Positions 11,814 to 31,453 of a stretch of 64,000 bases of DNA are shown piece after piece; the stretch's first letter is position 1, and every line of letters begins with the position of its first letter. Source of the DNA: Tagaea sp. (GTDB taxonomy: Bacteria; Pseudomonadota; Alphaproteobacteria; CACIAM-22H2); NCBI GenBank assembly GCA_044378015.1, contig JBILXZ010000008.1, positions 9,917 to 73,916 on the forward strand, read 5' to 3'. The notes under the pieces were generated by a model. It was not told the origin of the DNA, ran no database searches, and worked only from the letters and a program-made list of their open reading frames with translations. The translations under genes were made by a program, and so were the position numbers.

Positions 11814-11833
11814 GCCGTCTTGGATTCGACCGT

Positions 11834-12034: not shown

Positions 12035-12163
12035 AGGGATTCTCCCGAAAAACTGCACCACAACTTTTTCTAATGTAGCACGCAGAACGGCGTGTGTGCG
12101 AGAAACTTTTTATCCTATTGTTTTTGCTGTATTGTCGGCACTTCAATGGAAATACGTTGAACC

Positions 12164-15070
12164 ATGGCGAGCCTGACGCAAGCCCGCCTGCGCCGAACTG
12201 CAGCTGTCGCGTTTACGCTCGTGACCCTGCTCGGCGCTGCCCTCTTGTGGGTGCCAGAGGCGACCTTGAGGTATTCGGTCCGCCAAGGGGCATCGCTTGC
12301 AGGGCTGCAGCTTGCCGGTCTCGAGAAGGCATCGCTTTCGCTTTCGATGCGCGAGGGCGAAATTCTGCTCGGTGCGGTGGAGTTCATGAAACTTCATGCG
12401 GCGGGCACGAAACGGCCAGACACGCAAATGCCGGGCCTGCGCGTCGACGCGATCGATCTGCGCTTCGATTGGCGCAAGCTTCTGGCCGGCCGTTTGGAGC
12501 TGCCGAGCCTTCGCGTGCGGGGGCTCGCCCTCGAGCTCGAGCGCAATCGGGACGGCGGTTTTGCTGTTTCGGGCGTGGCTGTCGGCGGCGGCACCGCGGC
12601 GCCTTCCGAGCCTGCGCGGGGCGCTGGCGAATCGCTCGGCTTCGACTGGCCGATCGGGATCGACGTTGCCGAAATCCTCGATTCGACCCTTGTCTATCGC
12701 GACGGCGATCGCACGCTTGCCTTGAGGATCGAGAGCCTCAGGATCGAGCGCTTCGCATTCGACACGCAACCGCGCAAAGTCCGCTTTGCACTCGACGGCA
12801 CGCTGGCAGACGCTTCCTTTTCGGTGCGCGGCACTGCCGATCTCGGTGCGCCTTCGTTCGAGGGAAATGTCGAGGTCGCCGGGCTGGCGCTGGCGGCGGT
12901 TGCGAGCAAAGTCGGGCTCGAGCTTGGCGGCGTGCTCGCAGCCAAGCTCGACGTTGCCGTGTCGCAGCAGGCCGACGGTCCGATGGTGGCGCTCGTCGGC
13001 ATGGCCAATCTGGAAGGTTTGACCATGCCGGGGACGACCGCGGCCGCCGCGACATGGAACGGCCGCACGAGGTGGCAGGCGGCAAGCGGATTTTCGTTCG
13101 ACGGCGCGCTGACGGTGCGCGATTTCAAGCGCATTGCCGATGCCGGCACGCTGGCAGGCGAAGCAATAACCTATCGCGGGACCGCTGTACTCGGCCCACA
13201 GGGGGCGTTCGAATTGCGCGGCGGTGCCGAGCTTGCTTCGGTCGCGGTCGCCGCAGGCGCCGCCAAATTGCGCGCCGGCACGGTCGCGCTCGCTCGACTC
13301 GATTTGTCGCTGGCGCCGTCCGGCAGGATCCTTTTTGGCGGCAATCCGGCGCTGCGCGACGTCGCGTTCGAGCAAGGGACGATGTCGTTCGCGGCACAGA
13401 GCCTTGCCGCAGACGGGACTGCGTCGCACGACGCGGGCACGCTGCTTTTCGACGGTTCGATCGAGATGGCGGTTGCGAAATTCGACGACGACGAGGTGGG
13501 GGCGACGCTTGCGCAGCTGCGCTATCGCGGCGCCCTGGTGCGGCAGGGCGATGCGGTTTCCAGCAATGGCATGCCGGGCCTCGTTCGCGGATCGGCAAGC
13601 GCCAGCAAGGAAGGCTTGGCGATTTCGTTCGGCGAATTGCGCCACGAAGGGCGTGCTGCCGTGGCCCCTGTTCCGGCCCTCGCCGGTCGCCTTGCAGCAA
13701 GCGACTTCACGCTCGATGCGGCCGACGGCCGCACGCTTGCGGCGATCGGTCGAGTGACGGCTTCCGACCTTGCCGCCGACGCCGTCGGCACGCAGGCGCC
13801 GCGCGTAGAAATCGAGAATCTGCGATTGCTGCGTCGCGTCGCAGCCGGCGCAGGGCAGCCCGCTTTTCCCTGGCGACTCGAGGCCGCGCGCGCGTCTTTG
13901 CGCGATCTGCGTTTGGAGGGAATGCGCGCCGTTGCCGTAAACGCGATCCAGATCGAGCGTCCGCTCCTGCGTCTTACGCGAACCAAAGAAGGTTGGCTTA
14001 GCCTCGATGCCAAGCCCTCGCCGCCCGCATCGGCGCCTTCGTCGGCAGCAACCCCGACGCCGGTCGCGGCACCCGCACCGCTGCGCTATACGGTGGGGCG
14101 CCTGTCGTTCGGCGGCGGGCGCGCGGTCTTCGAGGACCGCGCGCCGCATGCGCCCGTACGTCTTGCCCTCGATCGGATCGAGGCGGATATCGTCGACATC
14201 GACAATATGCGCCCCGAGCGGCCAGTCGCGTTTTCACTGTCGACACGGGTCGGCGGTTTTGGACAGGCAACGGCGCAAGGGACGGCGGCCGTTTTTGCGC
14301 CGTTGTTGTCTTTCGATCTCGAACTTGTTGCAAATGCGATCGATCTGCCGCCGCTGTCCTCGTATGTCGACCAGGCTTTAGGCATCGACCTTCGCACCGG
14401 AACCGCCGACGTGGCCGCGACTTTGAACGCGCGCGACGAGCAGCTTGCGGGAACGACGAAATGGCGCTTCGCCAATCTGCGGATCGACGAACGTGCGCGC
14501 GCCGCCGACGAGCCCGCGCCGAAGCTGCCTGTGGCGACGGTGCTGGGCTTGCTCGCCGATGCAGACGGTACGATCGCGCTCGATATTCCGGTTGCGGGTC
14601 CTTTGCGAGATCCGCAATTCGACACGGCCGATGCGGTGCGCCAAGCCGTGGGCGGCGCGATCGACGGCGCTTTGTCGACGACGTTTTCGGTGCTGTTCCC
14701 GTTCGGCGTCCTCGTTTCGAACGCGATCGAAAGCGAACGGCGCGGCACGTCGGTTGTGCTGCCTGCACTCGCATTCGCGGACGGCAAAAGCGACATCGAA
14801 GCCGCCGCGTCCGAGCAGTTGCAGGCACTCGCGAACTTTCTCGAGAAACGCCCGGCGGCCCAGCTCGAAGTGTGCGGTTTTGCCAAAACGGGCGAGATCG
14901 AAAAGGCCGACGCAGCGGATCTGGAAGCGCTGGCCGGCGCGCGCTCGACGGCGGTGAAAGCGCGGTTGATCGAAGGCGGCAAGGTCGCGGCGACGCGCGT
15001 CTTTGAATGCCGCCCGCTGGTCGACGTAAGCCCCAACGCCAATGCGCGGGTCGAGCTGCGGTTCCTGTAG
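12164..15070 (+). CDS. DUF748 / AsmA-like envelope protein with C-terminal OmpA-like domain
   Basis: N-terminal TM; beta-rich body; LPPLSSY, LLADADGTIALDIPVAGPLRDPQF motif; C-terminal FADGKS...RVELRF. Confidence 0.8.
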   Translation: MASLTQARLRRTAAVAFTLVTLLGAALLWVPEATLRYSVRQGASLAGLQLAGLEKASLSLSMREGEILLGAVEFMKLHAAGTKRPDTQMPGLRVDAIDLRFDWRKLLAGRLELPSLRVRGLALELERNRDGGFAVSGVAVGGGTAAPSEPARGAGESLGFDWPIGIDVAEILDSTLVYRDGDRTLALRIESLRIERFAFDTQPRKVRFALDGTLADASFSVRGTADLGAPSFEGNVEVAGLALAAVASKVGLELGGVLAAKLDVAVSQQADGPMVALVGMANLEGLTMPGTTAAAATWNGRTRWQAASGFSFDGALTVRDFKRIADAGTLAGEAITYRGTAVLGPQGAFELRGGAELASVAVAAGAAKLRAGTVALARLDLSLAPSGRILFGGNPALRDVAFEQGTMSFAAQSLAADGTASHDAGTLLFDGSIEMAVAKFDDDEVGATLAQLRYRGALVRQGDAVSSNGMPGLVRGSASASKEGLAISFGELRHEGRAAVAPVPALAGRLAASDFTLDAADGRTLAAIGRVTASDLAADAVGTQAPRVEIENLRLLRRVAAGAGQPAFPWRLEAARASLRDLRLEGMRAVAVNAIQIERPLLRLTRTKEGWLSLDAKPSPPASAPSSAATPTPVAAPAPLRYTVGRLSFGGGRAVFEDRAPHAPVRLALDRIEADIVDIDNMRPERPVAFSLSTRVGGFGQATAQGTAAVFAPLLSFDLELVANAIDLPPLSSYVDQALGIDLRTGTADVAATLNARDEQLAGTTKWRFANLRIDERARAADEPAPKLPVATVLGLLADADGTIALDIPVAGPLRDPQFDTADAVRQAVGGAIDGALSTTFSVLFPFGVLVSNAIESERRGTSVVLPALAFADGKSDIEAAASEQLQALANFLEKRPAAQLEVCGFAKTGEIEKADAADLEALAGARSTAVKARLIEGGKVAATRVFECRPLVDVSPNANARVELRFL

Positions 15071-15082
15071 GCGCGATGGCGG

Positions 15083-16372
15083 TCAGTCGGGCGCGCGGGC
15101 GGCGACCTGCGGAGGCGCGCCGGTTGCGCCCGTGAAATCGGCGCCGGCGAAATCTGCGCCCGCGACATCGCATTCGCCGATCGAAATCCAGCGCAGATCG
15201 GCATTCGCGAACGACGCATTCGCGAGCTGGCACTGCTGGAATCTCGCGTGTCGCAGCACGGCCGCATCGAAGCGCGCGATCAGCGACCGCCCGGAGGCAA
15301 CGACCAGAGGGGCCAAGTTGCAGCCGTCGAACACAGCGCGCACGAGGTTTGCACCCTTGAGATTTGCGCCGCGCAGTTCGGCGCTTTTGAAGCTCGCGCC
15401 GCGCATGTCGGCGCCCTCGAAGAGGCCTGCTTGCAGCCAGGCGCCGTCGAAGCGCGCGTGGGCGATGCATGCGTCCTTGGCATTGAGCGAGGTGAGCAAC
15501 GCGTGTTCGGGCCATTCGATATCGCGCAAATCGAATCCCGAGATGTCGAGTGCGCGGCCTTTGGCGCCGCCGCTCTCGATCCACGCGGCGTGGTCGCTCA
15601 CGAGAATGTGCAGGGACTCATTGAGCATCGACATCGGCTTGCCGCGCGGCTGGCCGGTCAGCGCGCCCGTTTCGTCGCATCCCGTGCGGTCGGCTGCCGC
15701 CATCGTGGCGCCGTAGAGATTGGCGTTGCGCAAGACCGCCCCGCGCATGTCCGCGCGCGAGAGGTCGGCCCCTTCGAAATCCGCGCCCTCGAAGGTTGCG
15801 TTTCTCAGATCGGCATTGACGAGATTGGCGCCCTTCAGGATCGCGTCGGTGAAGTCGGCCGTCGTTGCGACCGAGCCCGACATTTTGGCTTGGCTGAGAT
15901 TCGCGTTCACCATCCGCGCGCGGGAAAGATCCGTCGGCTCGGCGGGTGCGGCGAGCGTCGCGACGTCGGCGGCGAGCAGTTTCGCGAAAACCGCACCCTC
16001 GCGCATATCGGCGTGGAACATTTCGGCCGACGTGAGGTCGGCCCCTTTGAGGATTGCGCCGCGCATGTCGGCGCGCGTTAGGTTGGCGCGCACGAGTTTG
16101 GCCTTGGTCAAGTTCGCGCAGTACAGAACCGCGCGCCGCAGGTCGGTGCCGCTTATGTCGCAATCGATCATGATGGCGCCGGTGAAATCGGCTTCCGCGA
16201 GGTTCTTGCAGGCGAGGTTGAGCCCCGTCAGGTTTCGGTAGCCGAAATTCGCGCGCTGCCCGCCTGCGCGGTTGCTCGCGAAAAGCTCGTGCTTCCGCAC
16301 CGCAAGATCGCACTCCTGCTGGTCCATGCTTTGGCAATTCTGGGATCGGTCCCGATCGGCCTCCGCGTGCAT
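15083..16372 (-). CDS. Pentapeptide-repeat protein (two modules), paralogue-like to 10518..11813
   Basis: ADL/ANL repeats; caps KHELF...GQRANF and DHAAWIESGGAKGRALDI. Start could be 16327. Confidence 0.9.
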   Translation of the reverse strand: MHAEADRDRSQNCQSMDQQECDLAVRKHELFASNRAGGQRANFGYRNLTGLNLACKNLAEADFTGAIMIDCDISGTDLRRAVLYCANLTKAKLVRANLTRADMRGAILKGADLTSAEMFHADMREGAVFAKLLAADVATLAAPAEPTDLSRARMVNANLSQAKMSGSVATTADFTDAILKGANLVNADLRNATFEGADFEGADLSRADMRGAVLRNANLYGATMAAADRTGCDETGALTGQPRGKPMSMLNESLHILVSDHAAWIESGGAKGRALDISGFDLRDIEWPEHALLTSLNAKDACIAHARFDGAWLQAGLFEGADMRGASFKSAELRGANLKGANLVRAVFDGCNLAPLVVASGRSLIARFDAAVLRHARFQQCQLANASFANADLRWISIGECDVAGADFAGADFTGATGAPPQVAARAPD

Positions 16373-16429
16373 CGCGTTTTCTCCTGGCAGCGCAAATCGC
16401 GTCGCGGCGATATTGCGTCCGTCCGTCCG

Positions 16430-17632
16430 TCAGGGCAAGGGCAGGGCTGCAAAGCGGTCTGGCTCCATGCCAGCGAGCGGGAAGGGACTCGGACGTCCCT
16501 CGACGAGGGCAGCGACGATCTGCGCCGTCAGCGGTGCGAGGGTTATGCCGTCGCCCTCGTGGCCGGCGGCGACGATCGCGTTGCGACGCAAGATCGAGCG
16601 GCCGAGCAAAGGGCGCTTGTCGGGAACGAACGGCCGAAGACCCGCAAAGGCCCGCAGGATCGTCGCCTTTGCGAGGGCCGGCACGCGCTTGGCGCCTTCA
16701 GCCAGAATTGTGCGATAGCCGTCGCCCGACACGCGTCTGTCGAAGCCCGCGAAAACGCGCGTGTTGCCGACGATATGCTGGCCGTGCGGCGTCGTTTCGA
16801 GCGTGAAGCCGTATCCCATGCGTTGAAGCGGGTCGCTCGACGTTTTGGCGGCTTCGGGATCGAGCTTGGCGGTCAAATACCGCGCCGAAACAAGAAAACG
16901 TGTGGCAAGAGGCGTTGCGCGCGCCGTGACGAGCAACTCGCCGCGGCGCGGCACAACCGGCAGCTCGAGCCCGGCAAGGGCGCCCAGTTCGCGGCTCCAG
17001 ATGCCTGCGCAAAAAACGAATTGTTCGGCCGCAAGGTCGATGCGTTCGCCGTCGACGCGCGCGAGGCTGGCGCGGGAAATTCGGTCGCCTGCCAAGTCGA
17101 ATTCCCTGACGGTCGTGTGCCACAGCGTCTGCGCGCCGCTTTCGCGCGCGGCCGCCACGAGCGCGAGCACGACGAGGTAGGGGGTTACTTGCGCCTCGTC
17201 GGGCACGTCGAGCGCGCCGTGAAGTTCGGGCGACAGATTGGGCTCGATCGCCAGCATGGCGGCCCGATCGACGCAGCGCGCGGCGATGCCTGCCTGTTTC
17301 AGCAGCGCGCAATGCGCTGCCATCTTGTCGATCTCGTCGGCCGCTTCGATGAGCATCAGTCCGCCGCAGCGTTTGTAGTCGATGCGCGAAGCGCCGAGCC
17401 GCTCGGCCAAAGCGGGGTAGAGGCTTTGGCTTGCCGCCGCCATCGCCAAGGACGGCCCCGGCGTCTTCGTCGAAACCGATACGTAGCCGTCGCACGCACC
17501 CGAACTGCCCGCATTCGGCAACGCGCTGTCGATCAAGACAACACGATGGCCGCCTTTGGCGAGCGTTTCGGCGCACGCGGCCCCCATGATTCCGGCGCCG
17601 AAAACGGCAATTTCAGTTTCGATGCGGCGCAT
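16430..17632 (-). CDS. FAD-dependent DAAO-family oxidoreductase (HcnC / OoxB / glycine oxidase-like)
   Basis: GAGIMG Rossmann motif, AGSSGAC, FAGLRP, AGHEGDGITLAP. Confidence 0.85.
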   Translation of the reverse strand: MRRIETEIAVFGAGIMGAACAETLAKGGHRVVLIDSALPNAGSSGACDGYVSVSTKTPGPSLAMAAASQSLYPALAERLGASRIDYKRCGGLMLIEAADEIDKMAAHCALLKQAGIAARCVDRAAMLAIEPNLSPELHGALDVPDEAQVTPYLVVLALVAAARESGAQTLWHTTVREFDLAGDRISRASLARVDGERIDLAAEQFVFCAGIWSRELGALAGLELPVVPRRGELLVTARATPLATRFLVSARYLTAKLDPEAAKTSSDPLQRMGYGFTLETTPHGQHIVGNTRVFAGFDRRVSGDGYRTILAEGAKRVPALAKATILRAFAGLRPFVPDKRPLLGRSILRRNAIVAAGHEGDGITLAPLTAQIVAALVEGRPSPFPLAGMEPDRFAALPLP

Positions 17633-17729
17633 AGGCGGCGATTGCTCCTCGAAAGCTTTCGTGACACGGTTCCGTGCAGATTTCAAACGGACTGCCGCCT
17701 TGTTCCGACCGATAGATCCCGCCGCCCAA

Positions 17730-19193
17730 GTGCACTCGTCGCCGCGCAGTCCGCTCGCGCAGGCTTTGCTGCGCGGCCCCCATCCCGCCCTGTGCGCGAT
17801 CGGGCATTGCTTCCAATGTCTGGACGCCGACGGCAAGCGCACCTGCGTATCGCCGCACGCCGATGCTGCCTCGTCGGCAATGCCGACTTGCGAGGCGATC
17901 GTGATCGGCGCGGGACCGGCGGGCTCGGCGTGTGCGCTTGCCCTTGCGGCCGAAGGGGTCGAAACCTTGCTGCTCGACGCCGATGCGGCGCCCGGCGGCA
18001 ATGTCTGGCGCAAGCCGCATGGGCCCGACGACCGTGGCAGCGGCGCGTGGCTGCGCGGCCGCATCCGTGCCGCCAGGCATCTTGCCCATCGGGCAGGTAT
18101 CGAGGTCCTGGATATCCGCGCCGGGCATGAGGTATGGGCGCTTGATGCCGCCGGGCGCGGCCATATTCTTGCCGCCAAGGCCGTAGTGCTGGCGACAGGG
18201 GCGATCGAGCGCAATGTCGCGATCCCGGGCTGGGAGTTGCCGGGCGTGTTCAATCTCGGCGCCTTGCAGGCTTTGGCCAAAGGGCAGGGCGTGGTGCCGC
18301 AAGGACCGACTTTGCTTGGCGGCAGCGGGCCACTGCTCTATCTCGTTGCCGACGAATTGCGCGCGGCGGGCGTCGAACTCGTCGCGGTCGTCGACGCGTC
18401 CGGGCTGCCCTCGCTGCGCGTGCTGAGCGCGTTGGCGTCGGCTCCGGGTCTTTTGGGTCGAGCCGCCGGTTTTGTTCTGCGCTTGATGCGTGCGCGCGTG
18501 CCGATTTTGCGTAAACACGCCTTAGTGCGCGTGGACGGCGACAAGACCGTCGCGTCGGCGATTGTTGCGGCCCTCGACGATCCTGCACGAACCCGCCGTT
18601 TCGACGTGTCGGTCGTCGGCGTCGGATACGGTTTGATGGCGAATATCGATCTCGTCCAGGTCGCCGGTGCGGCCGTCGCTTTCGATGCAGCCCTCGGCGG
18701 CTGGCACGCGCGCGCGGATGGGGTCGGCGAAACGAGCGTGCCCGATCTCTACGCGATCGGCGAAACGCGCGGCGTGCGCGGCGTGGAGGCTGCCTTGTGC
18801 GACGCGCCGGAGACCGCCGCCGCGATCGTCGCACGGCTCGGCCGCACGCCGTCGCAAGAGCTGCTCGAGGCCGTGCGGCGCGCGCGCCTCCGACGCGCAA
18901 GTTTCGAAAAGGCCGCGCGCGCTCTCGGCGCGTGGATGCGCGTCCCGCGGCCGGCGACCGCGCCCGAAACCGTCGTCTGCCGCTGCGAGGCGGTGCGGCA
19001 ACGCGATCTCGATGCGGCGCGCGCCCTCGATCTCGATGCGCCCGCCGCCCTCAAAATGGCGACTCGCCTCGGCATGGGCTTCTGCCAGGGGCGCGTGTGC
19101 GCCGCCGGCACGAGCGATCCTGCGGCCGGACCGCCGCGCGCGCGGTTTCCGATCCGCCCGTGCCCGGCCGACGCTTTCGGTCCGGTCGTCTAG
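17730..19193 (+). CDS. HcnA-HcnB / OoxA-like fusion (short 2Fe-2S segment + FAD/NAD oxidoreductase + BFD-like domain)
   Basis: CAIGHCFQC...RTC, then IGAGPAG, LATGAIER..IPGW.LPGV, C-terminal CRCE...GMGFCQGRVC. GTG 17730 start is uncertain. Confidence 0.75.
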   Translation: MHSSPRSPLAQALLRGPHPALCAIGHCFQCLDADGKRTCVSPHADAASSAMPTCEAIVIGAGPAGSACALALAAEGVETLLLDADAAPGGNVWRKPHGPDDRGSGAWLRGRIRAARHLAHRAGIEVLDIRAGHEVWALDAAGRGHILAAKAVVLATGAIERNVAIPGWELPGVFNLGALQALAKGQGVVPQGPTLLGGSGPLLYLVADELRAAGVELVAVVDASGLPSLRVLSALASAPGLLGRAAGFVLRLMRARVPILRKHALVRVDGDKTVASAIVAALDDPARTRRFDVSVVGVGYGLMANIDLVQVAGAAVAFDAALGGWHARADGVGETSVPDLYAIGETRGVRGVEAALCDAPETAAAIVARLGRTPSQELLEAVRRARLRRASFEKAARALGAWMRVPRPATAPETVVCRCEAVRQRDLDAARALDLDAPAALKMATRLGMGFCQGRVCAAGTSDPAAGPPRARFPIRPCPADAFGPVV

Positions 19194-19325
19194 CGCATCG
19201 GCTTCAGGCAGCGCGCTGCCGCGGCAGAGCCGCGCTGTCTTTGGCGGGGTTCCTGTTCGCGGGCCGATCGACGCGGTTGCGCATGTCGCCGGTCGCCATC
19301 GCGATCTCCTTTGCATTGCGCACGG

Positions 19326-19985
19326 CTACTTGGGCTGCGGCACGATGCGCAGATAGGGCTTGGGCGCCTTCCAGCCGCTCGGATATTTGGCCTTGGCCTG
19401 GTCGTCGGAGACCGAGCCCGCAATGATCACGTCTTCGCCGTTTTTCCAGTTCACCGGTGTGGCGACTTGGTGCTTGGCGGTGAGCTGTATCGAATCGAGC
19501 AGGCGCAGGACTTCGTCGAAATTGCGCCCGGATGTCATCGGATAGATCAGCATGGCTTTTATCTTCTTGTCGGGCCCGATGATGAAGACCGTGCGCACGG
19601 TCGCGTTGTCGGCGGCCGTGCGGCCGTCCGCGGCGCTGCCTTCGGCTTCGGGAAGCATGTCGTACAGCTTCGCGATTTCGAGCGTTGGATCGCCGATCAT
19701 CGGAAAATCGACTTTCGAGCCTTGCGTTTCCTCGATGTCGGCGGCCCAACGTGCGTGGTTGTCGACCGGATCGACGCTGAGGCCGATGACTTTCGTGTTG
19801 CGTTTAACGAATTCGGGCTTGAGGCGCGCGACACAGCCGAGTTTGGTTGTGCAGACGGGCGTGAAATCCTCGGGATGCGAAAACAGCACGGCCAAGCTGT
19901 CGCCGATCTATTCGTGGAAACGAATCGTGCCCTGGGTCGTTGCGGCGGTGAAGTCCGGCGCAACGGCGTTGATGCGTAAGGTCAT
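19326..19985 (-). pseudogene. 1-Cys peroxiredoxin (Prx6) pseudogene
   Basis: MTLRINAVAPDFTAATTQGTIRFHE*IGDS...FSHPEDFTPVCTTKLG: conserved Trp codon is TAG at 19908-19910, with other drift (KDF>EDF, TTEL>TTKL). Confidence 0.8.
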
Positions 19986-20085
19986 CGCTTGGATCTCTTT
20001 TTCGACGGAGTTCGAAGTGCGAGGTTACCGCTCAATAGAGGAATGCCGACAACGGATCGCTGCGAACAGATTTCGAGTATCTTTC

Positions 20086-20167
20086 TGTCAATAATTTGCG
20101 AAAAATTTTATGACAAGTTATGTTTACATAATAGAATACCGTGAATAAATGTATAATTCTAAATAAA
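20086..20167. promoter_or_regulatory. AT-rich puc promoter region with degenerate PpsR/CrtJ-like sites
   Basis: TGA-N12-ACA (20111-20128), TGT-N12-ATA (20121-20138), TGT-N12-AAA (20150-20167); TGTCA...TGACA inverted repeat at 20086-20115. No perfect TGT-N12-ACA. Confidence 0.4.
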
Positions 20168-20351
20168 ACGCAATAACCCCTCATAAACAAACATAAACTG
20201 TCAAATTTCCGCTTGGCGCGATCTCGACTGCTTGGTAAGTTCGGCTGTTCATCGATTCCTCCTTTTGGGTCGATGGCATGTTCTCAAGTAGTAAACCCTG
20301 CGTGCGGGCTCTGCACGTTCTTGAGTCCCAACGAACCCTAGGAGGAACGAC

Positions 20352-20507
20352 ATGTCCGACGATCCCACCAAAGTCTGGCCGACCGGCCTGACGCTGCCGG
20401 AGGCGGAGGAGATCCACCGTCACATCATCGACGGAACGCGCATCTTCGCGCTGGTTTCGCTGGCGGCGCATCTGATGGCGTACATGTTCACGCCCTGGCT
20501 GAAATAG
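20352..20507 (+). CDS. pucB: Light-harvesting LH2 beta chain
   Basis: MSDDPTKVWPTGLTLPEAEEIHRHIIDGTRIFALVSLAAHLMAYMFTPWLK; GGAGG RBS; His40 BChl ligand and Arg at -10. Not in the ORF track. Confidence 0.95.
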   Translation: MSDDPTKVWPTGLTLPEAEEIHRHIIDGTRIFALVSLAAHLMAYMFTPWLK

Positions 20508-20518
20508 GAGAGCGAACC

Positions 20519-20752
20519 ATGTTTTACGGAAGAATGTGGCTGGTTGTGAAACCGTCGATCGGCATCCCCATGGGCGCTGTCGGCATTCTCGGGATCTCGC
20601 TGTTCGTGCATGCTTGCATCCTCACGAACACGACTTGGTTCCCTGCGTTCCTCAACGGCAGCGCCAAGCCGCGCATCGTGTCGGAATTGGTCGTACCCAC
20701 AGGCCAAATGCCGGGCGCGCAAGCGCTCGCGTCCTTGGAACTCCCGAAGTAA
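20519..20752 (+). CDS. pucA: Light-harvesting LH2-family alpha chain
   Basis: GRMWLVVKPSIGIP...VH31...TTW40FPAF44L45NG; directly follows pucB. Confidence 0.93.
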   Translation: MFYGRMWLVVKPSIGIPMGAVGILGISLFVHACILTNTTWFPAFLNGSAKPRIVSELVVPTGQMPGAQALASLELPK

Positions 20753-20778
20753 CGGGAGCCGCTCTGCAGACGACGTCA

Positions 20779-20813
20779 GCGGGCCGGGGTCCTTGCGGGA
20801 TCCCGGCCTGTTT
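20779..20813 (+). terminator. GC-rich hairpin between pucA and pucC (attenuator or mRNA stabiliser)
   Basis: GCGGGCCGGGGTCC-loop-GGATCCCGGCCTGT followed by a short T run. Confidence 0.6.
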
Positions 20814-20891
20814 CGTTGAAAGCTGCCGCAAGCGGGCTGTAGGTCGACGGAGGGATGCTGCCGTGACGTTTTCCGCATCGAGGATCGCGCG

Positions 20892-22316
20892 ATGAGTGGC
20901 GTACGCCAGAAGGCCGTTCTGTTCCTGCTGCGGGCAGGGCCACGTTTCCTGCCGTTCGCCGATGCCGCAACCCCCGATTTGCCGCTCGGACGCTTGCTGC
21001 GACTGTCGCTATTCCAGGTATCGGTCGGCATGGCGCTGGTGTTGCTGGTCGGCACGCTGAACCGCGTGATGATCGTCGAACTCGGCGTCTCGGCCGCCCT
21101 GGTCGGCGTCATGATTTCGTTGCCGTTGATTTTTGCGCCATTCCGCGCGCTGATCGGTTTTCGCTCGGACACGCACAGTTCGGCCCTTGGTTGGCGGCGC
21201 GTGCCTTTCATTTGGCGCGGCACGATGATCCAGTTCGGCGGCCTCGCGATGATGCCGTTTTCGTTGCTGGTGCTGGCGGGCGGCGGCGAGTCCGCCGATG
21301 CGCCGACCTGGATTGGCCAGATCGGAGCGGGTCTTGCGTTTCTGCTGGTCGGGGCGGGGCTGCACATGACGCAGACCGTGGGCCTCGCTTTGGCAACCGA
21401 TCTCGCCCCTGTCGAAACGCAGCCCAAAGTCGTCGGACTCATGTACGTGATGCTGCTTGCCGGAATGGTTTTTTCGGCGCTGCTGTTCGGCTGGCTGCTC
21501 GCCGATTTCTCGCCGCTGCGCCTTGTGCAGGTCATCCAAGGTGCGGCGCTGGCGACGATCGCGCTCAATGTGGTGGCGCTCTGGAAACAGGAACCGCGCA
21601 AGCCGCTCGCGCCTGCAGCGGTCGTGCCTGCAACGCAGCCGTCCTTTGCGGAAGCCTGGGGCCATTTTGCGGCAGGCGACCGTGCGCTGCGTCGCTTGAT
21701 CGCGACCGGTTTCGGCACGATGGCGTTCAGCATGTCCGACGTGCTGCTCGAGCCCTATGGCGGGCAGATTTTGCATATGGCAGTCGGAACCACGACCGCA
21801 CTTACCGCCACGCTCGCGATCGGCGGGTTGTTCGGTTTCGGTTTGGCCTCGCGCGTTCTGGGCCGCGGGGCGGACCCGTTCCGCATGGCAAGCTACGGCG
21901 CGTTGGTCGGCATTCCCGCGTATCTGGCGTTGATCGCGTCCGCGCCGTTCGACGCGCCCGTGCTGTTCGGCTTGGGCACTGCGGCCGTCGGCTTCGGGGC
22001 GGGACTGTTCGGCCATGGAACTTTGACCGCCACGATGAACCTTGCCCCCAAGAGCCAGACCGGCCTGGCGCTCGGCGCCTGGGGCGCCGTGCAGGCATCG
22101 GCCGCCGGGGTCGCGGTTGCGACGGGCGGCATCGTTTACGAAGCCGTCGCTTGGTTCGCCGCTGCGCGCGGGCTCGATCCGGCGACCGGCTACAACGCGG
22201 TCTACGCGCTCGAGATTGCGCTGCTGTTCGCGGCCCTGCTGGCCATGCTGCCGTTGCTGCGGCGTGCCCCCGCACTTGCGCGCGCGAACCCGTCCGCCGG
22301 GGCTGCCGTCTCGTGA
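20892..22316 (+). CDS. pucC: PucC-family MFS protein (LH2 assembly)
   Basis: LPFADAAT.DLPLGRLLRLSLFQ, GTLNRVMIVEL, DVLLEPYGG, LGAWGAVQA motifs. Confidence 0.92.
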   Translation: MSGVRQKAVLFLLRAGPRFLPFADAATPDLPLGRLLRLSLFQVSVGMALVLLVGTLNRVMIVELGVSAALVGVMISLPLIFAPFRALIGFRSDTHSSALGWRRVPFIWRGTMIQFGGLAMMPFSLLVLAGGGESADAPTWIGQIGAGLAFLLVGAGLHMTQTVGLALATDLAPVETQPKVVGLMYVMLLAGMVFSALLFGWLLADFSPLRLVQVIQGAALATIALNVVALWKQEPRKPLAPAAVVPATQPSFAEAWGHFAAGDRALRRLIATGFGTMAFSMSDVLLEPYGGQILHMAVGTTTALTATLAIGGLFGFGLASRVLGRGADPFRMASYGALVGIPAYLALIASAPFDAPVLFGLGTAAVGFGAGLFGHGTLTATMNLAPKSQTGLALGAWGAVQASAAGVAVATGGIVYEAVAWFAAARGLDPATGYNAVYALEIALLFAALLAMLPLLRRAPALARANPSAGAAVS

Positions 22317-22398
22317 CCGCCGCGCCGATATCCAGCTTGCCGCCCGAATTCGCCGCCTCTATCCTTTCATAACTGTCCGCGACCCATCGGAGCCAAAC

Positions 22399-22551
22399 AT
22401 GTCGAAGAAAATCATCCGGACCTACCGCTCTTTGATGTACCTGCTGCCGATCTTCCCCCTGCTGGTTCTGTTCCCGGATTCGGGACCGCTTGGACCGGTT
22501 ATGGCGCTGCTTGCAGTCGTCTTCATATTGTTCAATTGGCTCGATAGCTGA
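22399..22551 (+). CDS. 50-aa hydrophobic small protein
   Basis: GGAG RBS; MSKKIIRTYRSLMYLLPIFPLLVLFPDSGPLGPVMALLAVVFILFNWLDS with two hydrophobic stretches. Confidence 0.5.
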   Translation: MSKKIIRTYRSLMYLLPIFPLLVLFPDSGPLGPVMALLAVVFILFNWLDS

Positions 22552-22590
22552 TCCGACGCGTCGATTTGCCGGGAACGGCATGCATCGCGC

Positions 22591-22959
22591 CTATCGCCCT
22601 CTCGACCGTGCAGGCGTTCGAGCGGGCCGAGCGGACGCGCGCTCGGGCGCGCAGTAAAGCTTGTAAAGCGTTTCGATCACGCGCCTGGCCGCGATGCCGG
22701 CAAGCCTGTAGCGGATCGTTTGGCCGTCCCGGCGCGCGGCCACGAGGCCGAGCGCTCGCATCTTCGACAGATGCTGCGATAGGGCTGCCGGGCTGAGGGC
22801 GACAATCTCGGCCAGCGCGCCGGCCGGTTTTTCCCCTTCCAGCAGGCTGCACAGCGCCATCAGCCGCTTGCCGTTCGCCATTGCGCGCAGCAGGGCAGCT
22901 GCCTCTTCGGCTTTCGATTCCAGGGCGTTGCCGCCGATTTTCGTGCTTTTCGATTCCAT
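22591..22959 (-). CDS. ArsR-family repressor, BigR/SqrR-like
   Basis: ALSQHL HTH; Cys37 (RLMALC) and Cys103 (YKLYC), 66 residues apart as in BigR/SqrR. Confidence 0.85.
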   Translation of the reverse strand: MESKSTKIGGNALESKAEEAAALLRAMANGKRLMALCSLLEGEKPAGALAEIVALSPAALSQHLSKMRALGLVAARRDGQTIRYRLAGIAARRVIETLYKLYCAPERASARPARTPARSRGR

Positions 22960-22963
22960 CTTC

Positions 22964-22996
22964 ATTGTTTTAGTATTTTCGAATATACTTAACAAT
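22964..22996. promoter_or_regulatory. Inverted-repeat operator between the ArsR gene and DUF2892-yeeE genes
   Basis: ATTGTT-TT-AGTAT-TTTCGAAT-ATACT-T-AACAAT nested palindrome in the 71-bp divergent gap. Confidence 0.6.
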
Positions 22997-23030
22997 TAGT
23001 TTACCGTCCTGAAAATCGAAGGAGTTCGCC

Positions 23031-23255
23031 ATGTCCAACGTCGGATCGACCGACCGCATGCTGCGTTTTGCCGTCGGGGCCGCATTGCTTGCGGCACCGG
23101 CTTTGCCGCCGTTCGCCGATTTCTTTGCAGCGATCGGGCTTTGGAAGTTCGCATTTGCGGCTGCGGGCGCGATCCTGATCGGGACCGCGGCATTCCGCTT
23201 CTGTCCCGCCTACCGGCTTGTCGGCATTTCGACCTGCCGCATCCCGTCGCCGTAA
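23031..23255 (+). CDS. DUF2892 (YgaP-like) membrane protein
   Basis: NVGSTDRMLR...FCPAYRLVGISTC. Confidence 0.85.
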   Translation: MSNVGSTDRMLRFAVGAALLAAPALPPFADFFAAIGLWKFAFAAAGAILIGTAAFRFCPAYRLVGISTCRIPSP

Positions 23256-23262
23256 GCGCGCG

Positions 23263-23700
23263 ATGGCGGAAGGTTCTTTTGCCGCCGCGTTGGCGGGCGG
23301 CGCGCTGATCGGTGCGGCGGCCGTGCTGCTGATGCTTTTCGTCGGCCGCATTGCCGGGGTGAGCGGCATTGCGGCACGCCTGCTGCCGCCGTATGCCGAC
23401 GGCGAAACGGCAGTGCGCGACTTCGCGGGCAGGGCCGCCTTCGTTTTGGGGCTGGTGGCTGCGCCAGCCGCGTGGCGCTTGCGCGCCGATGCGATGCCGG
23501 ATCTCGTCGTTGACGCGGGGCCTGCCACGCTTGTCGTTGCGGGGCTGCTGGTCGGCTTCGGCAGCGTTTTGGGCAGCGGCTGCACATCCGGTCACGGCGT
23601 GTGCGGATTGTCGCGTCTGTCCAAACGCTCCTACGTCGCTGTGGCGATCTTCATGGCGACGGCGATCGCAACCGCCGTTTCGGGGCGGCATTTTTTGTGA
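23263..23700 (+). CDS. YeeE/YedE family sulfur transporter (PmpA-like)
   Basis: GRIAGVSGI and GSGCTSGHGVCG motifs. Confidence 0.85.
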   Translation: MAEGSFAAALAGGALIGAAAVLLMLFVGRIAGVSGIAARLLPPYADGETAVRDFAGRAAFVLGLVAAPAAWRLRADAMPDLVVDAGPATLVVAGLLVGFGSVLGSGCTSGHGVCGLSRLSKRSYVAVAIFMATAIATAVSGRHFL

Positions 23701-23708
23701 GGAGCACG

Positions 23709-24170
23709 ATGGCCCTTTTGGCGCAATTCGCGGTAGGCCTTCTGTTCGGGCTCGGGCTGGTCGTTTCGGGCATGTCGAACCCGGCGACGGTGCTCGGTTT
23801 CCTCGATGTTTCTGCCGTCGGATCGGGGACCTGGGATCCGCGCTTGGCATTCGTGCTGGTCGGTGCGGTTAGCGTCGCAGCGCTCGGCTATCGCCTGGTG
23901 CTGCAGCGTCGGCGGCCGGTCCTCGCTGAAGCATTCCATCTGCCGACCGCGACAGCGGTCGATGCGCGCCTTGTTGTCGGAGCGGCGATATTCGGCGTCG
24001 GCTGGGGGCTTGTCGGGTTCTGCCCCGGCCCCGCCTTCGTCGCAGCGGGTACCGGTGCCGCACCGGCTTTCCTGTTTGTCGCCGCAATGCTGGTCGGTAT
24101 GCTGGCCGCGCGCATGTTGGCGAAGCGTCTCAATCTGCCTCGGCCAGGGCCAGCAGCATCCGACGCATGA
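23709..24170 (+). CDS. YeeE/YedE family sulfur transporter (PmpB-like)
   Basis: SGMSNPATVLGFLD, WDPRL, GWGLVGFCPGP motifs. Confidence 0.85.
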   Translation: MALLAQFAVGLLFGLGLVVSGMSNPATVLGFLDVSAVGSGTWDPRLAFVLVGAVSVAALGYRLVLQRRRPVLAEAFHLPTATAVDARLVVGAAIFGVGWGLVGFCPGPAFVAAGTGAAPAFLFVAAMLVGMLAARMLAKRLNLPRPGPAASDA

Positions 24171-25122
24171 TGAGGCCGGGCTTATCCGACGGCATGTGCC
24201 GTTCGGCGGTCGCAAAATCGCGCAATGGCACGTACGGGTCCGTCGCTTCGAGCACGGCCTTGTCTTCGAGCGTGACGGCGCGGTCGAACGCGACGGCTAT
24301 TGCGGTCGGCACATCGGCTTCGCTGTCGTTGCGGTAGGCCCATTGCACAAGCCGCGTATGGCCGTCGTCGACGGGTACGGTTGCGGTCACGATGCGGTGC
24401 GCAACGCCGTTGGGATAGGCGAGGTCGAGCTTGCGCAAGAACGGGACCCAATAGCGATGCATGGTCGTGCGCGTCGTGGTTTCGCCGTTGAGGCCCGAAT
24501 AGGCGGCTCCGATCGCGCGATTGGCGGCACGCTCGACAGCGTGTGCCACGAATCCGTCGCCGAATTCTTCGATGCTGTTTTCGGCCGGGATCGGGTCGCG
24601 CGTGGCGCCGAACGTCGCCTGGTGCACGAACTCGATATGCGCGTTGTCGAACTCGTTTTCCATGAGCCGCAATGCGCCGCAAGCCCAGGTCTCGGCGAAT
24701 TCGGGGATGCGCCGCCAAGCGGGATCGCCGTCCTCGGCGAAATCGGGGATGTCGGCTTGCGGCTTGTCGAGGGCGACCCAGACATGTCCGTAGCGCGCCT
24801 GGGCGTGGAAGGCGGAGATCTTGATATTGCCGGTCGCAGCCGGATCGGCGCGCTGCGGGATGCGTATGCATTTGCCCGTGCGGTCGAACGTCCAGCCGTG
24901 ATAGCCGCATACAATGGCGCCGTTCTCGACGCTGCCGATGGAAAGTTTCGCGGTACGATGGCAGCAGCGGTCGATGGCTGCGGCGGGCGCTCCTGTTTCG
25001 TCGCGCCACAGCACGAGATCGACACCGAGCAGACGTTGTGCCACCGGCTCCGCATCGAGATACTCGACGCGAACGAGCGGGTACCAGAAGCGCCGAAGCG
25101 CCGGAATCTCGGAGAGTTTCAT
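24130..25122 (-). CDS. Rieske non-heme iron oxygenase alpha subunit (VanA/NdmA-like)
   Basis: CCHR...CGYHGW Rieske motif; ENEFDNAHIEFVH mononuclear Fe motif; EDKAVLE. Confidence 0.88.
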   Translation of the reverse strand: MKLSEIPALRRFWYPLVRVEYLDAEPVAQRLLGVDLVLWRDETGAPAAAIDRCCHRTAKLSIGSVENGAIVCGYHGWTFDRTGKCIRIPQRADPAATGNIKISAFHAQARYGHVWVALDKPQADIPDFAEDGDPAWRRIPEFAETWACGALRLMENEFDNAHIEFVHQATFGATRDPIPAENSIEEFGDGFVAHAVERAANRAIGAAYSGLNGETTTRTTMHRYWVPFLRKLDLAYPNGVAHRIVTATVPVDDGHTRLVQWAYRNDSEADVPTAIAVAFDRAVTLEDKAVLEATDPYVPLRDFATAERHMPSDKPGLIMRRMLLALAEAD

Positions 25123-25323
25123 GCGCACCGGTCGAAGCAATTCGGGTGCCAGTGCTCTGGAGTCTTTTCGCCGTGCCGCGCTGAGGCTTATTGAACCGGA
25201 ATCTGCGTTCGCGTTTCGAGGCGCTCTCGGCCGATCCCGAAATCGTCGCAATGCCTTCAATGGCATATGTTTTGCATTCTTTCCTGCGGATTTTTCGTCT
25301 CGTTCGAACCAGGAGTTTTGCGC

Positions 25324-29179: not shown

Positions 29180-30505
29180 ATGGCCCGCACCTCTCGCAGC
29201 GCTCGCATCGAAACGCGCACCAAGCGCCTTAAATTGCCAATACGGCGCGAACCCTATTGGCACTCGATTGAGGCCGGTTTCGCCTTGGGCTATCGGCGCC
29301 TCGCTGGCAACAAGGGCGGCACCTGGATTGCCAAACGCTACGTCAAAGGCGAGCGGCGCGTTTTGAAGGCCCTTGGGACGGCGGATGACTTTACCGACGC
29401 GGACGGCGTGCGCGCTCTTACATTCGCCCAAGCCCAAGCGGGCGCGCGGCAATGGCTTGTAGATTTGGCCATCGCGAAAGCCGGGGGCGTCGATCCATCC
29501 AAGCCCTACACCGTCAGCAACGCTTTGGATGACTACCTCGCGCACTACGTCACCAAGGGCGGACGGGCAGAAATTGCAGCACGGCGCGCAATCGATAATT
29601 TGATCCGGCCCGCGATGGGCAGTATCCCGCTCGCCAATCTCACCTTCGGCCAAGTCGAAAGTTTCCGCGACGGACTTGCGGAAATTGGCCGCCGGTTCCG
29701 AACGAAAAAGGGTACGCCCCACAAGCCCGAAAAACTCCGGGTAAACGACCCCGAGCAACGGCGAAAGCGGCGCGCCACCGCCAATCGCGTATTCACATTC
29801 CTACGGGCGGCCCTCAATCGCGCCTATCAAAAACAAAAAGTCGCATCCGACGCAGCATGGGCGTCGATAAAGCCCTTCGAAAAGGTAGATGCGCCGCGCG
29901 AACGATACCTTACGGATGATGAGGCCGTGCGCCTCGCAAATGCCTGCGCCCCCGACATGCGAGCCCTTGTCACGGCGGCGCTGCTGACGGGGTGCCGCTA
30001 TGGCGAGCTAATCGCGATGCGCGCGGGGCATTTTGACGGCGATAATGGGACGCTCCACATTCCCGAGCCGAAATCCGGCAAGCGGCGCGACGTGGTGCTT
30101 GCCAGTGAAGGCCGCCAATTCTTCGAAGCCGCAACAATGGGGAAGGTTGCTACCGAACTCGTATTTCTGCGGGCCGGTGGCAACGCTTGGAAGCGTGTAG
30201 ATCAGGTCCGCCCGCTTAAAGCCGCATGCAAGGCCGCACGGATTTTCCCAGCGGTGGGCTTCCATATCTTGCGGCATACCTACGCCTCGCGCCTCGCGCG
30301 CGCAAATGTCCCCATGGTGGTTATCGCGAAGCAACTCGGGCATGGCGATTTGCGAATGACAACGCGGCACTACGCGCACCTATCGCCCGGCTACGTCGCG
30401 GACACAGTGCGCGCCGCTTTCGGTTCGATGGGGCTTGTCGATATGAAGCCCGGCAACGTCGCTTCTATGGAAGCGGCACGGGCCAAGAAAGGCGCGCCGC
30501 TCTAG
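29180..30505 (+). CDS. int: Tyrosine recombinase / integrase
   Basis: Catalytic set present: TGCRYGEL (R), PKSGK (K), FHILRHT (HxxR), LGH (H), RHYAH (Y); N-terminal arm-binding-like domain. Confidence 0.93.
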   Translation: MARTSRSARIETRTKRLKLPIRREPYWHSIEAGFALGYRRLAGNKGGTWIAKRYVKGERRVLKALGTADDFTDADGVRALTFAQAQAGARQWLVDLAIAKAGGVDPSKPYTVSNALDDYLAHYVTKGGRAEIAARRAIDNLIRPAMGSIPLANLTFGQVESFRDGLAEIGRRFRTKKGTPHKPEKLRVNDPEQRRKRRATANRVFTFLRAALNRAYQKQKVASDAAWASIKPFEKVDAPRERYLTDDEAVRLANACAPDMRALVTAALLTGCRYGELIAMRAGHFDGDNGTLHIPEPKSGKRRDVVLASEGRQFFEAATMGKVATELVFLRAGGNAWKRVDQVRPLKAACKAARIFPAVGFHILRHTYASRLARANVPMVVIAKQLGHGDLRMTTRHYAHLSPGYVADTVRAAFGSMGLVDMKPGNVASMEAARAKKGAPL

Positions 30506-30536
30506 CGTGCGCGCGCTGGCGTGATACACTCTAGAC

Positions 30537-30591
30537 CGATGGGGATAGGGCGGCCACCCGACAAGCGCAAACCGTATGTGCTTCCCCATCG
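30537..30591 (+). ncRNA. Structured RNA between integrase and alpA-like genes (int-alpA motif-like)
   Basis: Outer stem CGATGGGGA/TCCCCATCG encloses hairpins GGG-CGGCCA-CCC and AAGCGCA/TGTGCTT; extended -10 TGATACACT just upstream. Confidence 0.5.
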
Positions 30592-30621
30592 CAACGATAC
30601 GGACGCCCGGACGGAGGGCGC

Positions 30622-31448: not shown

Positions 31449-31453
31449 GCATG

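What the first reader, a model, noticed from the sequence alone, without database searches (positions are those of the whole stretch)
20352..22316. Stand-alone pucBAC encoding a predicted blue-shifted (LH3 / B800-820-like) antenna
Seen: the alpha chain has His31, Trp40, Phe41, Phe44 and Leu45. Known: Tyr44/Trp45 H-bond the B850 acetyl groups in B800-850 LH2, and Phe44/Leu45 is the B800-820 (LH3) substitution in Rhodoblastus acidophilus. Here position 41 is Phe, so the compensating Tyr41 of LH3 is also missing. Beta Arg(-10) for B800 is retained. Such variants are usually extra copies, whereas this one is the pucC-linked pair, far from any photosynthesis cluster in this window.
Basis: partly seen in the sequence, partly recalled or inferred. 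Interest (0 to 1): 0.7.

Follow-up and report, generated by a model that had tools for sequence, protein, structure and literature searches.

The report
Blue-shifted-type LH2 antenna operon, sole copy
A lake bacterium with a full set of bacteriochlorophyll photosynthesis genes has one peripheral antenna operon, and its alpha chain lacks the residues that normally shift absorption to 850 nm, an arrangement that is common among related environmental bacteria.

Summary
pucB (20352-20507), pucA (20519-20752) and pucC (20892-22316) are real, conserved genes. The alpha chain aligns without gaps to solved LH2/LH3 chains and has His31, Trp40, Phe41, Phe44 and Leu45. The beta chain keeps His40, Arg30 (-10) and His22 (-18).

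The genome (96% complete) has a photosynthesis gene cluster on another contig (pufBALM, bch, crt, ppsR, acsF). This is its only puc pair. BchE and RuBisCO were not found, so the genotype resembles an aerobic anoxygenic phototroph.

Contigs from lake-water RNA libraries match pucBA exactly.

A blue-shifted B800-820/830 antenna is the best-supported reading. The same Phe-Leu change gives B800-826 in Rhodobacter sphaeroides. Solved B800-820 complexes carry WYAAFL or WFPAFQ at these positions.

The claim that this is unusual does not hold:
- Phe-Leu is the commonest pair among 98 parsed family representatives (31, against 25 Tyr-Trp).
- Five of five other Phe-Leu genomes tested also have a single puc pair.
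- A constitutive LH3-type antenna is already described in an aerobic phototroph.

This is a new member of a known kind. The lineage (nearest named record: a Telmatospirillum MAG) is not described as phototrophic in the papers searched.

The parts
20000..20300 (+). AT-rich upstream region of the operon (about 35% GC against about 65% around it). It holds a sigma-70-like site, ATGACA-16-TAGAAT, at 20110-20137, and blocks conserved in relatives: TTTACATA at 20123-20130 and AATTT..CTTGGCG at about 20204-20218.
   Evidence: Composition. Promoter scan, (2 sites found against 0.6 expected in shuffles). Alignment of five upstream regions. There is no exact PpsR-type TGT-N12-ACA here; four sites with one mismatch lie at 20086-20167.
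20277..20351 (+). Leader directly upstream of pucB. It is covered by RNA-library contigs, contains a predicted stem-loop (outer stem 20283-20288 with 20320-20325, inner stem around 20299-20319), and ends in the AGGAGG ribosome-binding site.
   Evidence: Contigs begin at 20277, 20282 and 20283 in three of the four runs laid (contigs cannot prove an RNA start). Fold, (z -0.82, not significant on its own). The sequence is conserved in five genomes.
20352..20507 (+). pucB, LH2 beta polypeptide (51 aa). His40 is the ligand of the dimeric BChl. Arg30 (-10) and His22 (-18) belong to the B800 site.
   Evidence: Pfam LHC 36.8 bits. E 2.4e-22 to the beta chain of 7ZDI, and alignments to other solved LH2 beta chains. 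Identical protein in G003 and G005 despite 4 silent changes.
20519..20752 (+). pucA, LH2 alpha polypeptide (77 aa): Met1, Ser27, His31, Trp40, Phe41, Phe44, Leu45, and a C-terminal extension of about 30 residues.
   Evidence: Pfam LHC 37.1 bits. Ungapped alignments to 8Z81_a, 7PBW, 1IJD_A and 1KZU_A. WFPAFL is kept in all five genus members that have the gene.
20778..20812 (+). Intercistronic hairpin with a 16-pair stem and 3-nt loop, followed by UUUCGUU, between pucA and pucC. It is probably a partial terminator or a stabiliser of the short pucBA mRNA.
   Evidence: Fold of 20750-20895, -69.4 kcal/mol, z -2.27, 4 of 200 shuffles fold as well. The role is inferred by analogy with classical puc operons (recalled).
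20892..22316 (+). pucC, an MFS-type LH2 assembly factor (474 aa).
   Evidence: Pfam PUCC 493.9 bits and MFS_1 63.3 bits. It is one of three PucC-family genes in the genome; the other two lie in the photosynthesis cluster on contig C9.

Best explanation
This is the only peripheral-antenna (LH2) operon of a lake-water alphaproteobacterium whose gene set resembles an aerobic anoxygenic phototroph. pucB and pucA encode the beta/alpha pair that binds one monomeric BChl a (B800) and two coupled BChl a. The B800 site uses alpha Met1, beta His22 and beta Arg30; the coupled pair is held by alpha His31 and beta His40. pucC is the assembly factor. The three alpha positions known to hydrogen-bond the C3-acetyl groups of the coupled BChls (41, 44, 45) are Phe, Phe and Leu. 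The long-wavelength band is therefore expected near 820-830 nm instead of 850 nm, a B800-820/830 or 'LH3-type' LH2. As the only LH2, it would be made whenever LH2 is made, not swapped in under low light. It would pass energy downhill to an ordinary LH1, with little back-transfer. The operon is probably transcribed as an abundant short pucBA message that stops at the hairpin, with some read-through into pucC. Shown here: the genes, the residues, their conservation, the copy number, the genomic context, and the presence of pucBA in RNA libraries. Inferred: the absorption maximum, the ring size (probably nonameric, as in the closest solved complexes), the transcript ends and the aerobic lifestyle.
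For: Genes and residues.

Copy number and genome:
- LHC hits over the cut-off in the 96.2% complete genome number four: one pair beside pufLM on C9 and this pair.
- The C9 cluster holds tspO, dxs, hemA, acsF, puhC, bchH, bchN, ppsR, bchP, pufML, bchZ, bchX, crtD and crtI.
- AcsF scores 474.8 bits. The best BchE hit is 85 bits against a cut-off of 481. No RuBisCO large subunit was found.

Spectral inference:
- In Rba. sphaeroides, Tyr44/Tyr45 to Phe/Leu gives B800-826, and LH3 carries Phe/Leu at these sites (PMC8775250, passages read). That alpha chain has Leu at position 41 (7PBW alignment), so the mutant has no donor at 41, 44 or 45, as here.
- The closest solved alpha chain is 8Z81_a (E 2.4e-15, motif WYPAFF). 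It absorbs at 835 nm, with half of its coupled BChls bonded by Tyr41 (PMC11802735, passages read). Here even Tyr41 is absent.
- 9DWZ_A, deposited as a B-800/820 alpha chain, reads WFPAFQ, so Phe41 occurs in a complex named B800-820.

Selection and expression:
- WFPAFL is kept in five of five genus members that have the gene, and most changes are silent.
- All four lake metatranscriptome runs laid contain contigs with 0 differences that lie within 20277-20774.

Precedent: Pseudohaliea rubra has a constitutive 804/821 nm antenna (PMC3679898). Most LH2 of aerobic phototrophs deviate from 800-850 nm (PMC12654162).
Against: No spectrum exists for this protein or for any close relative.

Absorption also depends on acetyl torsion, exciton coupling and ring size, which sequence does not reveal. 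Other residues (Asn46, Ser48, beta Tyr44, or the 30-residue C-terminal extension) could supply hydrogen bonds in ways not seen in solved complexes.

The RNA data are assembled contigs from RNA libraries. They cannot prove transcription, strand or transcript ends, and the four runs may belong to one sampling campaign.

The genome is a 124-contig draft, so a second puc pair, bchE or RuBisCO could lie in the missing 4% or so.

Among the 98 representatives counted, some may be core-antenna or other ring subunits, not LH2.
Confidence: 0.65

Rival explanations
1. The complex assembles but shows essentially one band near 800-815 nm, an 'LH4'-like or B800-814-type antenna, and not a clear 800/820-830 doublet. 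With no acetyl hydrogen bonds at all, the coupled ring would shift still further to the blue.
For: All three donor positions are empty. The Rps. palustris alpha chain in 7ZE3 reads TTWVAKFM, with Phe-Met at 44/45; I recall, without checking here, that this gene family gives the low-light 800 nm form. A solved complex named B-800/814 exists (9LT4; its residues were not seen). Aerobic phototrophs with monomodal peripheral antennae at about 806 nm are listed in PMC12654162 (passages read).
Against: The same Phe-Leu pair gives 826 nm in Rba. sphaeroides and 820 nm in LH3 (PMC8775250, passages read). 9DWZ, with WFPAFQ, is named B-800/820.
Confidence: 0.15
2. The complex absorbs near 840-850 nm after all. 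Hydrogen bonds or other red-shifting interactions would come from residues outside positions 41, 44 and 45, for example the conserved C-terminal extension or beta Tyr44.
For: The alpha chain has an unusual, conserved extension of about 30 residues. In other LH families, beta-chain Trp residues bond the acetyl groups (PMC11802735, LH1 passages read).
Against: The H-bonding residues named in the passages read for solved nonameric LH2 are alpha 41, 44 and 45 (PMC8775250, PMC11802735). In Hlr. halophila the 22 C-terminal alpha residues are mentioned in a passage that broke off; I did not see what is said about them. Mutating positions 44/45 alone is enough for the shift.
Confidence: 0.12
3. The operon is a silent or decaying relic and makes no antenna.
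For: Six of the 11 pufLM-positive genomes in the family have no puc pair, so LH2 is dispensable in this group. One database variant of this alpha chain carries a frameshifting 52-nt deletion.
Against: All three frames are intact and score over the cut-offs. Substitutions between species are mostly silent. RNA-library contigs identical to pucBA occur in all four runs laid.
Confidence: 0.03

Closest known systems
B800-820 (LH3) of Rhodoblastus acidophilus strain 7050, PDB 1IJD
   Same: The alpha chain aligns without gaps (residues 3-50) and shares His31, Trp40, Phe44 and Leu45. The beta chain shares the His, the Arg at -10 and the PWL end.
   Different: LH3 has Tyr41 (motif WYAAFL) where this alpha chain has Phe41. 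LH3 is one of several puc-encoded complexes and is made under low light or low temperature (PMC3679898, passage read); here there is a single pair. This alpha chain also has a C-terminal extension of about 30 residues.
Rhodobacter sphaeroides LH2 alpha Tyr44Phe/Tyr45Leu mutant (B800-826)
   Same: It has the same Phe-Leu pair at 44/45 and no donor at 41 (Leu41 in 7PBW), so its hydrogen-bond pattern is the closest to this one. It absorbs at 826 nm (PMC8775250, passages read).
   Different: It is an engineered protein, only distantly related in sequence (E 5.2e-12 to 7PBW_AA), and has no C-terminal extension.
Halorhodospira halophila LH2, PDB 8Z81 (B800-835)
   Same: It is the best sequence match among solved alpha chains (E 2.4e-15). 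It is a nonamer with Phe44, a long C-terminal tail, Met1 binding B800 and a beta Arg/His B800 site (PMC11802735, passages read).
   Different: Its motif WYPAFF keeps Tyr41, which bonds half of the coupled BChls. It sits inside an LH1 ring in a purple sulfur bacterium.
Constitutive LH3-type antenna of Pseudohaliea rubra (804/821 nm) and other blue-shifted LH2 of aerobic anoxygenic phototrophs
   Same: It is a peripheral antenna with a blue-shifted second band, made regardless of light, in an aerobic phototroph (PMC3679898, PMC12654162, passages read). This matches the AcsF-only, RuBisCO-less genotype here.
   Different: It belongs to a gammaproteobacterium, and its alpha sequence was not examined here. 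Relatives found in that group carry Phe-Phe, not Phe-Leu.
Phe-Leu puc pairs in Roseococcus, Sediminicoccus and 'Ferrovum'-labelled MAGs
   Same: They share the WFPAFL motif, a long alpha tail and a single puc pair per genome. Alpha identity is 54-67%.
   Different: They belong to other lineages. I found no spectra of their LH2. Roseococcus thiosulfatophilus is listed with no peripheral antenna peak in PMC12654162 (table read).

Membership tests
LH2 peripheral antenna (puc-encoded alpha/beta, Pfam LHC PF00556) | Two short single-helix polypeptides matching the LHC profile, encoded as pucB followed by pucA | tested here: met
   36.8 and 37.1 bits against a cut-off of 23. The best PDB matches are LH2 chains.
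LH2 peripheral antenna (puc-encoded alpha/beta, Pfam LHC PF00556) | His ligands for the coupled BChl pair (alpha His31 and the beta His) | tested here: met
   Alpha His31 and beta His40 align with the ligand His of solved chains.
LH2 peripheral antenna (puc-encoded alpha/beta, Pfam LHC PF00556) | B800 site: alpha N-terminal Met1, beta Arg at -10 and beta His at -18 | tested here: met
   Met1 aligns with the N-termini of solved alpha chains. Beta Arg30 and His22 are present. Their roles are taken from PMC11802735 and PMC8775250 (passages read).
LH2 peripheral antenna (puc-encoded alpha/beta, Pfam LHC PF00556) | Linked pucC assembly gene, with the operon outside the puf/bch cluster | tested here: met
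   PUCC 493.9 bits, directly downstream. The puf/bch cluster is on contig C9.
LH2 peripheral antenna (puc-encoded alpha/beta, Pfam LHC PF00556) | Forms an 8- or 9-membered ring that binds BChl a and a carotenoid | not testable with these tools
   The closest solved relatives are nonamers with 9 chains per entry. This is inference only.
B800-820 / LH3 spectral subtype | Non-hydrogen-bonding residues at alpha 44/45 (Phe-Leu) | tested here: met
   Phe44 and Leu45, in an ungapped alignment to 1IJD_A.
B800-820 / LH3 spectral subtype | Alpha Tyr41 bonding one acetyl group, as in 1IJD | tested here: not met
   Position 41 is Phe. However, 9DWZ_A, named a B-800/820 alpha chain, also has Phe41, so this feature is not universal.
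B800-820 / LH3 spectral subtype | An alternative complex from a multigene puc family, induced by low light or low temperature | tested here: not met
   There is only one puc pair in a 96% complete genome, and the same holds in four relatives.
B800-820 / LH3 spectral subtype | Long-wavelength band near 820 nm | not testable with these tools
   Needs a spectrum.
Aerobic anoxygenic phototroph (lifestyle class) | Photosynthesis gene cluster with the oxygen-dependent cyclase AcsF, and no BchE or RuBisCO | tested here: inconclusive
   AcsF is present. BchE is not over its cut-off and RuBisCO was not found. The genome is a 124-contig draft and lifestyle cannot be read from genes alone.

The most novel reading that the evidence does not exclude
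A clade of lake bacteria (nearest named record: a Telmatospirillum MAG) not described as phototrophic in the papers searched has as its only peripheral antenna a natural 'zero-donor' LH2 (Phe41/Phe44/Leu45). This is the natural counterpart of the engineered B800-826 mutant. Very close relatives carry the alternative Tyr41/Phe44/Phe45 form (predicted near 835 nm, as in 8Z81). The clade would then show spectral tuning of a single-copy antenna by allele replacement between closely related populations, instead of by gene-family switching within one cell.
Probability: 0.3. Interest if true: 0.5.

Novelty: new member of a known kind. Interest (0 to 1): 0.3.

Why it matters
If the prediction holds, this operon is a natural single-copy example of an LH2 with no acetyl hydrogen bonds, and it appears to be expressed in lake water. 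It would be a clean template for studying how far hydrogen bonding alone sets LH2 colour, and what a long alpha C-terminal tail contributes.

It also adds a phototrophic branch to a genus-level group otherwise known, through its named relatives, as chemotrophs. Phototrophy there is patchy: 8 of 21 species searched have pufLM, and 5 of those also have LH2.

The main general point is a corrective. Across environmental sequences, Phe-Leu at alpha 44/45 is at least as common as the textbook Tyr-Trp. The '850 nm' LH2 of model purple bacteria may therefore not be the typical state.

Tried and rejected
- **PpsR operator.** An exact TGT-N12-ACA search found 5 sites in the window, none upstream of pucB (3.96 expected by chance). 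Four sites with one mismatch at 20086-20167 lie in AT-rich DNA and are not evidence.
- **FNR-type site.** Searching TTGAT-N4-ATCAA with up to 2 mismatches found nothing in 19896-20351.
- **Rfam.** No family matched 19800-22700 at E up to 1.
- **Terminator scan.** It did not flag the 20778-20812 hairpin, because the tail has too few T.
- **Leader fold.** The fold of 20150-20360 is not better than shuffles (z -0.82).
- **Synteny in LH1-only relatives.** The neighbouring peroxiredoxin was not found at E<=1e-40 in G011, G015 or G020, so gain versus loss of pucBAC could not be judged.
- **RNA cover of pucC.** No RNA-library contig of this organism lay on pucC or upstream of 20277. One X15 contig touched 20950-21073 with loose ends on both sides and looks foreign. 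Missing cover in contigs shows nothing about pucC expression.
- **Residues of 9LT4 (B-800/814).** It never ranked high enough for its alignment to be printed.
- **Not run.** An alpha/beta LH2 pair would pass by likeness to solved structures, and the models carry no BChl.
- **Bias.** Its 74 loci were retrieved with a pattern containing NTTWFPAF. They are biased towards Phe44 and were not used for frequencies.
Full report
**What is there.** Three + strand ORFs lie at 20352-20507 (51 aa), 20519-20752 (77 aa) and 20892-22316 (474 aa). They match Pfam LHC (36.8 and 37.1 bits, cut-off 23) and PUCC (493.9 bits, cut-off 21). This is a pucB-pucA-pucC operon.

The beta chain has the ligand His40, Arg30 at -10 and His22 at -18. 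It aligns end to end with solved LH2 beta chains (E 2.4e-22 to the beta chain of 7ZDI).

**Real and under selection.**
- Four of 20 other species of the same genus carry an alpha chain 83-92% identical. All five copies read WFPAFL.
- Differences between orthologues are mostly silent. pucB against L017 and L013 has 4 nucleotide and 0 amino-acid differences. pucA against L017 has 29 nucleotide differences, with 20 codons changed silently and 6 residues changed.
- The neighbourhood is collinear with the nearest named record, a MAG labelled Telmatospirillum sp., over 15646-25151 at about 84% DNA identity.

**Genome context.** The window is part of contig C20 of a 3.62 Mb, 124-contig genome that is 96.2% complete.
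- LHC hits over the cut-off number four: this pair, and a pair on C9 next to pufL and pufM.
- The C9 region holds tspO, dxs, hemA, acsF, puhC, bchH, bchN, ppsR, bchP, pufM, pufL, bchZ, bchX, crtD and crtI. The C9 pair has ordinary LH1-type sequences.
- AcsF is present (474.8 bits). The best BchE match is 85 bits against a cut-off of 481. No RuBisCO large subunit was found. This genotype resembles an aerobic anoxygenic phototroph, with the caveat that the genome is a draft.
- In the window itself, 55 ORFs were scanned and none besides the puc genes relates to photosynthesis. The immediate neighbours are a 1-Cys peroxiredoxin (19326-19895, -) and an ArsR-type regulator (22591-22995, -).

**Distribution in relatives.**
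- In the family, 11 of 50 genomes searched (including this one) have pufLM: 8 of 21 in the genus and 3 of 9 in a second genus.
- Five of those 11 have LH1 plus exactly one puc pair. The other six have only the LH1 pair.
- Wherever LH2 exists in this group, it is therefore a single Phe-Leu pair.

**Operon anatomy.**
- Upstream lies an AT-rich region of about 300 bp (35% GC). It holds a sigma-70-like site at 20110-20137 and blocks conserved across five genomes.
- There is no exact PpsR site, although ppsR is in the genome.
- Between pucA and pucC lies a hairpin with a 16-pair stem at 20778-20812 followed by UUUCGUU (z -2.27). This is the classical puc layout, in which a short pucBA message ends at a hairpin and some transcripts read through (the layout is recalled, not tested).

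**Expression.**
- Fourteen lake-water DNA runs hold 97-100% of the sampled words of 20100-22400. Six lake-water RNA-library runs hold only 10-15%.
- Four RNA runs were laid. All four have contigs with zero differences, and all such contigs lie within 20277-20774: pucBA, 75 nt of leader and 22 nt of trailer.
- Three contigs begin at 20277-20283 and two end at 20769-20774.
- These are assembled contigs from RNA libraries. They show presence in those libraries, not strand or true ends. The coinciding ends are only a weak hint.

**Expected absorption.**
- In Rba. sphaeroides, alpha Tyr44 and Tyr45 bond the C3-acetyl groups of the B850 BChls. Changing them to Phe and Leu gives a B800-826 complex. 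The natural LH3 carries Phe and Leu at the same sites (PMC8775250, passages read).
- The Rba. sphaeroides alpha chain has Leu at position 41 (7PBW alignment). That mutant, like this protein, has no donor at 41, 44 or 45.
- The closest solved alpha chain, 8Z81_a from Halorhodospira halophila (E 2.4e-15, motif WYPAFF), absorbs at 835 nm. Tyr41 bonds half of its coupled BChls and Phe44 leaves the rest free. The same paper gives 823 nm for the strain 7050 complex and about 850 nm for fully bonded complexes (PMC11802735, passages read).
- 9DWZ_A, deposited as a B-800/820 alpha chain, reads WFPAFQ. A complex of that name therefore exists without Tyr41.
- These points together make a second band near 820-830 nm the best-supported expectation.
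- The B800 site residues are all kept, so an 800 nm band is expected too.
- None of this has been measured for this protein.

The data say otherwise.
- An exhaustive phmmer search of 1.84 billion cluster representatives gave 105 relatives. I could parse positions 40-45 in 98 of them; 7 did not fit the pattern.
- Phe-Leu is the commonest pair (31). Then come Tyr-Trp (25), Phe-Phe (9), Tyr-Leu (5), Tyr-Tyr (5), and rarer pairs (23 in all).
- Caveats: hits are ranked by likeness to a Phe-Leu query, some representatives may not be LH2, and a few are frameshifted or fused calls.
- Five of five other genomes with a WFPAFL alpha chain (two Roseococcus, one Sediminicoccus, two MAGs labelled Ferrovum) have only an LH1 pair and one puc pair.
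- A 2025 review states that most LH2 of aerobic anoxygenic phototrophs deviate from 800-850 nm and that puc genes normally lie outside the photosynthesis cluster (PMC12654162, passages read).
- A constitutive 804/821 nm antenna was reported for Pseudohaliea rubra in 2013 (PMC3679898, passages read).

**What may be new.**
- Three searches of the paper library found nothing that ties Telmatospirillum to phototrophy. Telmatospirillum with pufM gave 0 papers. Telmatospirillum with anoxygenic, bacteriochlorophyll or phototroph gave only two broad surveys at the top of the listing. Telmatospirillum with words beginning 'photo' gave 28 papers, none about phototrophy by its title (listing only).
- The organism's own name is not known to me. 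The label comes from neighbouring records, some of which are clearly mislabelled.
- Very close database relatives (90% and 74% identical) carry WYPAFF instead of WFPAFL. Two predicted spectral forms therefore exist within one narrow clade.

**Verdict.** The blue-shift interpretation is reasonable and well grounded, but untested. The claim of rarity is not supported. This is a new member of a known kind, of moderate-to-low interest.

Noticed in passing
proteins P0002 and P0006: Database relatives 90% and 74% identical to this alpha chain read WYPAFF (Tyr41, Phe44, Phe45) instead of WFPAFL. This is the motif of the 835 nm Hlr. halophila LH2, so two predicted spectral forms exist within one narrow clade.
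   Followed up: partly
window 20671-20722; protein P0007: One database protein equals this alpha chain from Met6 to Arg52 and then switches frame. A 52-nt deletion between GCGC repeats in the window sequence explains it exactly. It may be a strain variant or an assembly error that removes the C-terminal extension.
   Followed up: yes
window 20250-20275: Inverted repeat CATCGA-N14-TCGATG just upstream of where the RNA-library contigs begin (20277-20283). It is conserved in five genomes, with one paired change on both arms in L019. It could be an operator or an RNA stem.
   Followed up: partly
window 20123-20130 and about 20204-20218: Sequence blocks TTTACATA and AATTT..CTTGGCG are invariant across five upstream regions that otherwise diverge. 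No known regulator motif was matched.
   Followed up: no
window 29180-35484: A lower-GC stretch (57-62%) holds a phage-type integrase (29180-30505) and ends at a tRNA-Glu gene (35409-35484, - strand). It is probably an integrated element.
   Followed up: partly
window 10512-16372: Two long pentapeptide-repeat proteins (433 and 429 aa) flank a 968-aa DUF748/OmpA-domain protein.
   Followed up: no
genomes G011, G015, G020, G042, G045, G046: Six of the 11 pufLM-positive genomes in the family have only the LH1 pair. LH2 is therefore present in some phototrophic members and not found in others.
   Followed up: partly
loci L019, L020, L021: The closest puc loci outside the Telmatospirillum-labelled records sit in MAGs titled Asaia bogorensis and Ferrovum sp. 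These labels fit poorly with a puc operon 67-83% identical to this one. In L020 and L021, pucC lies on the opposite strand.
   Followed up: no
window 41936-42196: A short ORF matches only the C-terminal part of an integrase core domain (rve_3). It is probably a transposase remnant.
   Followed up: no
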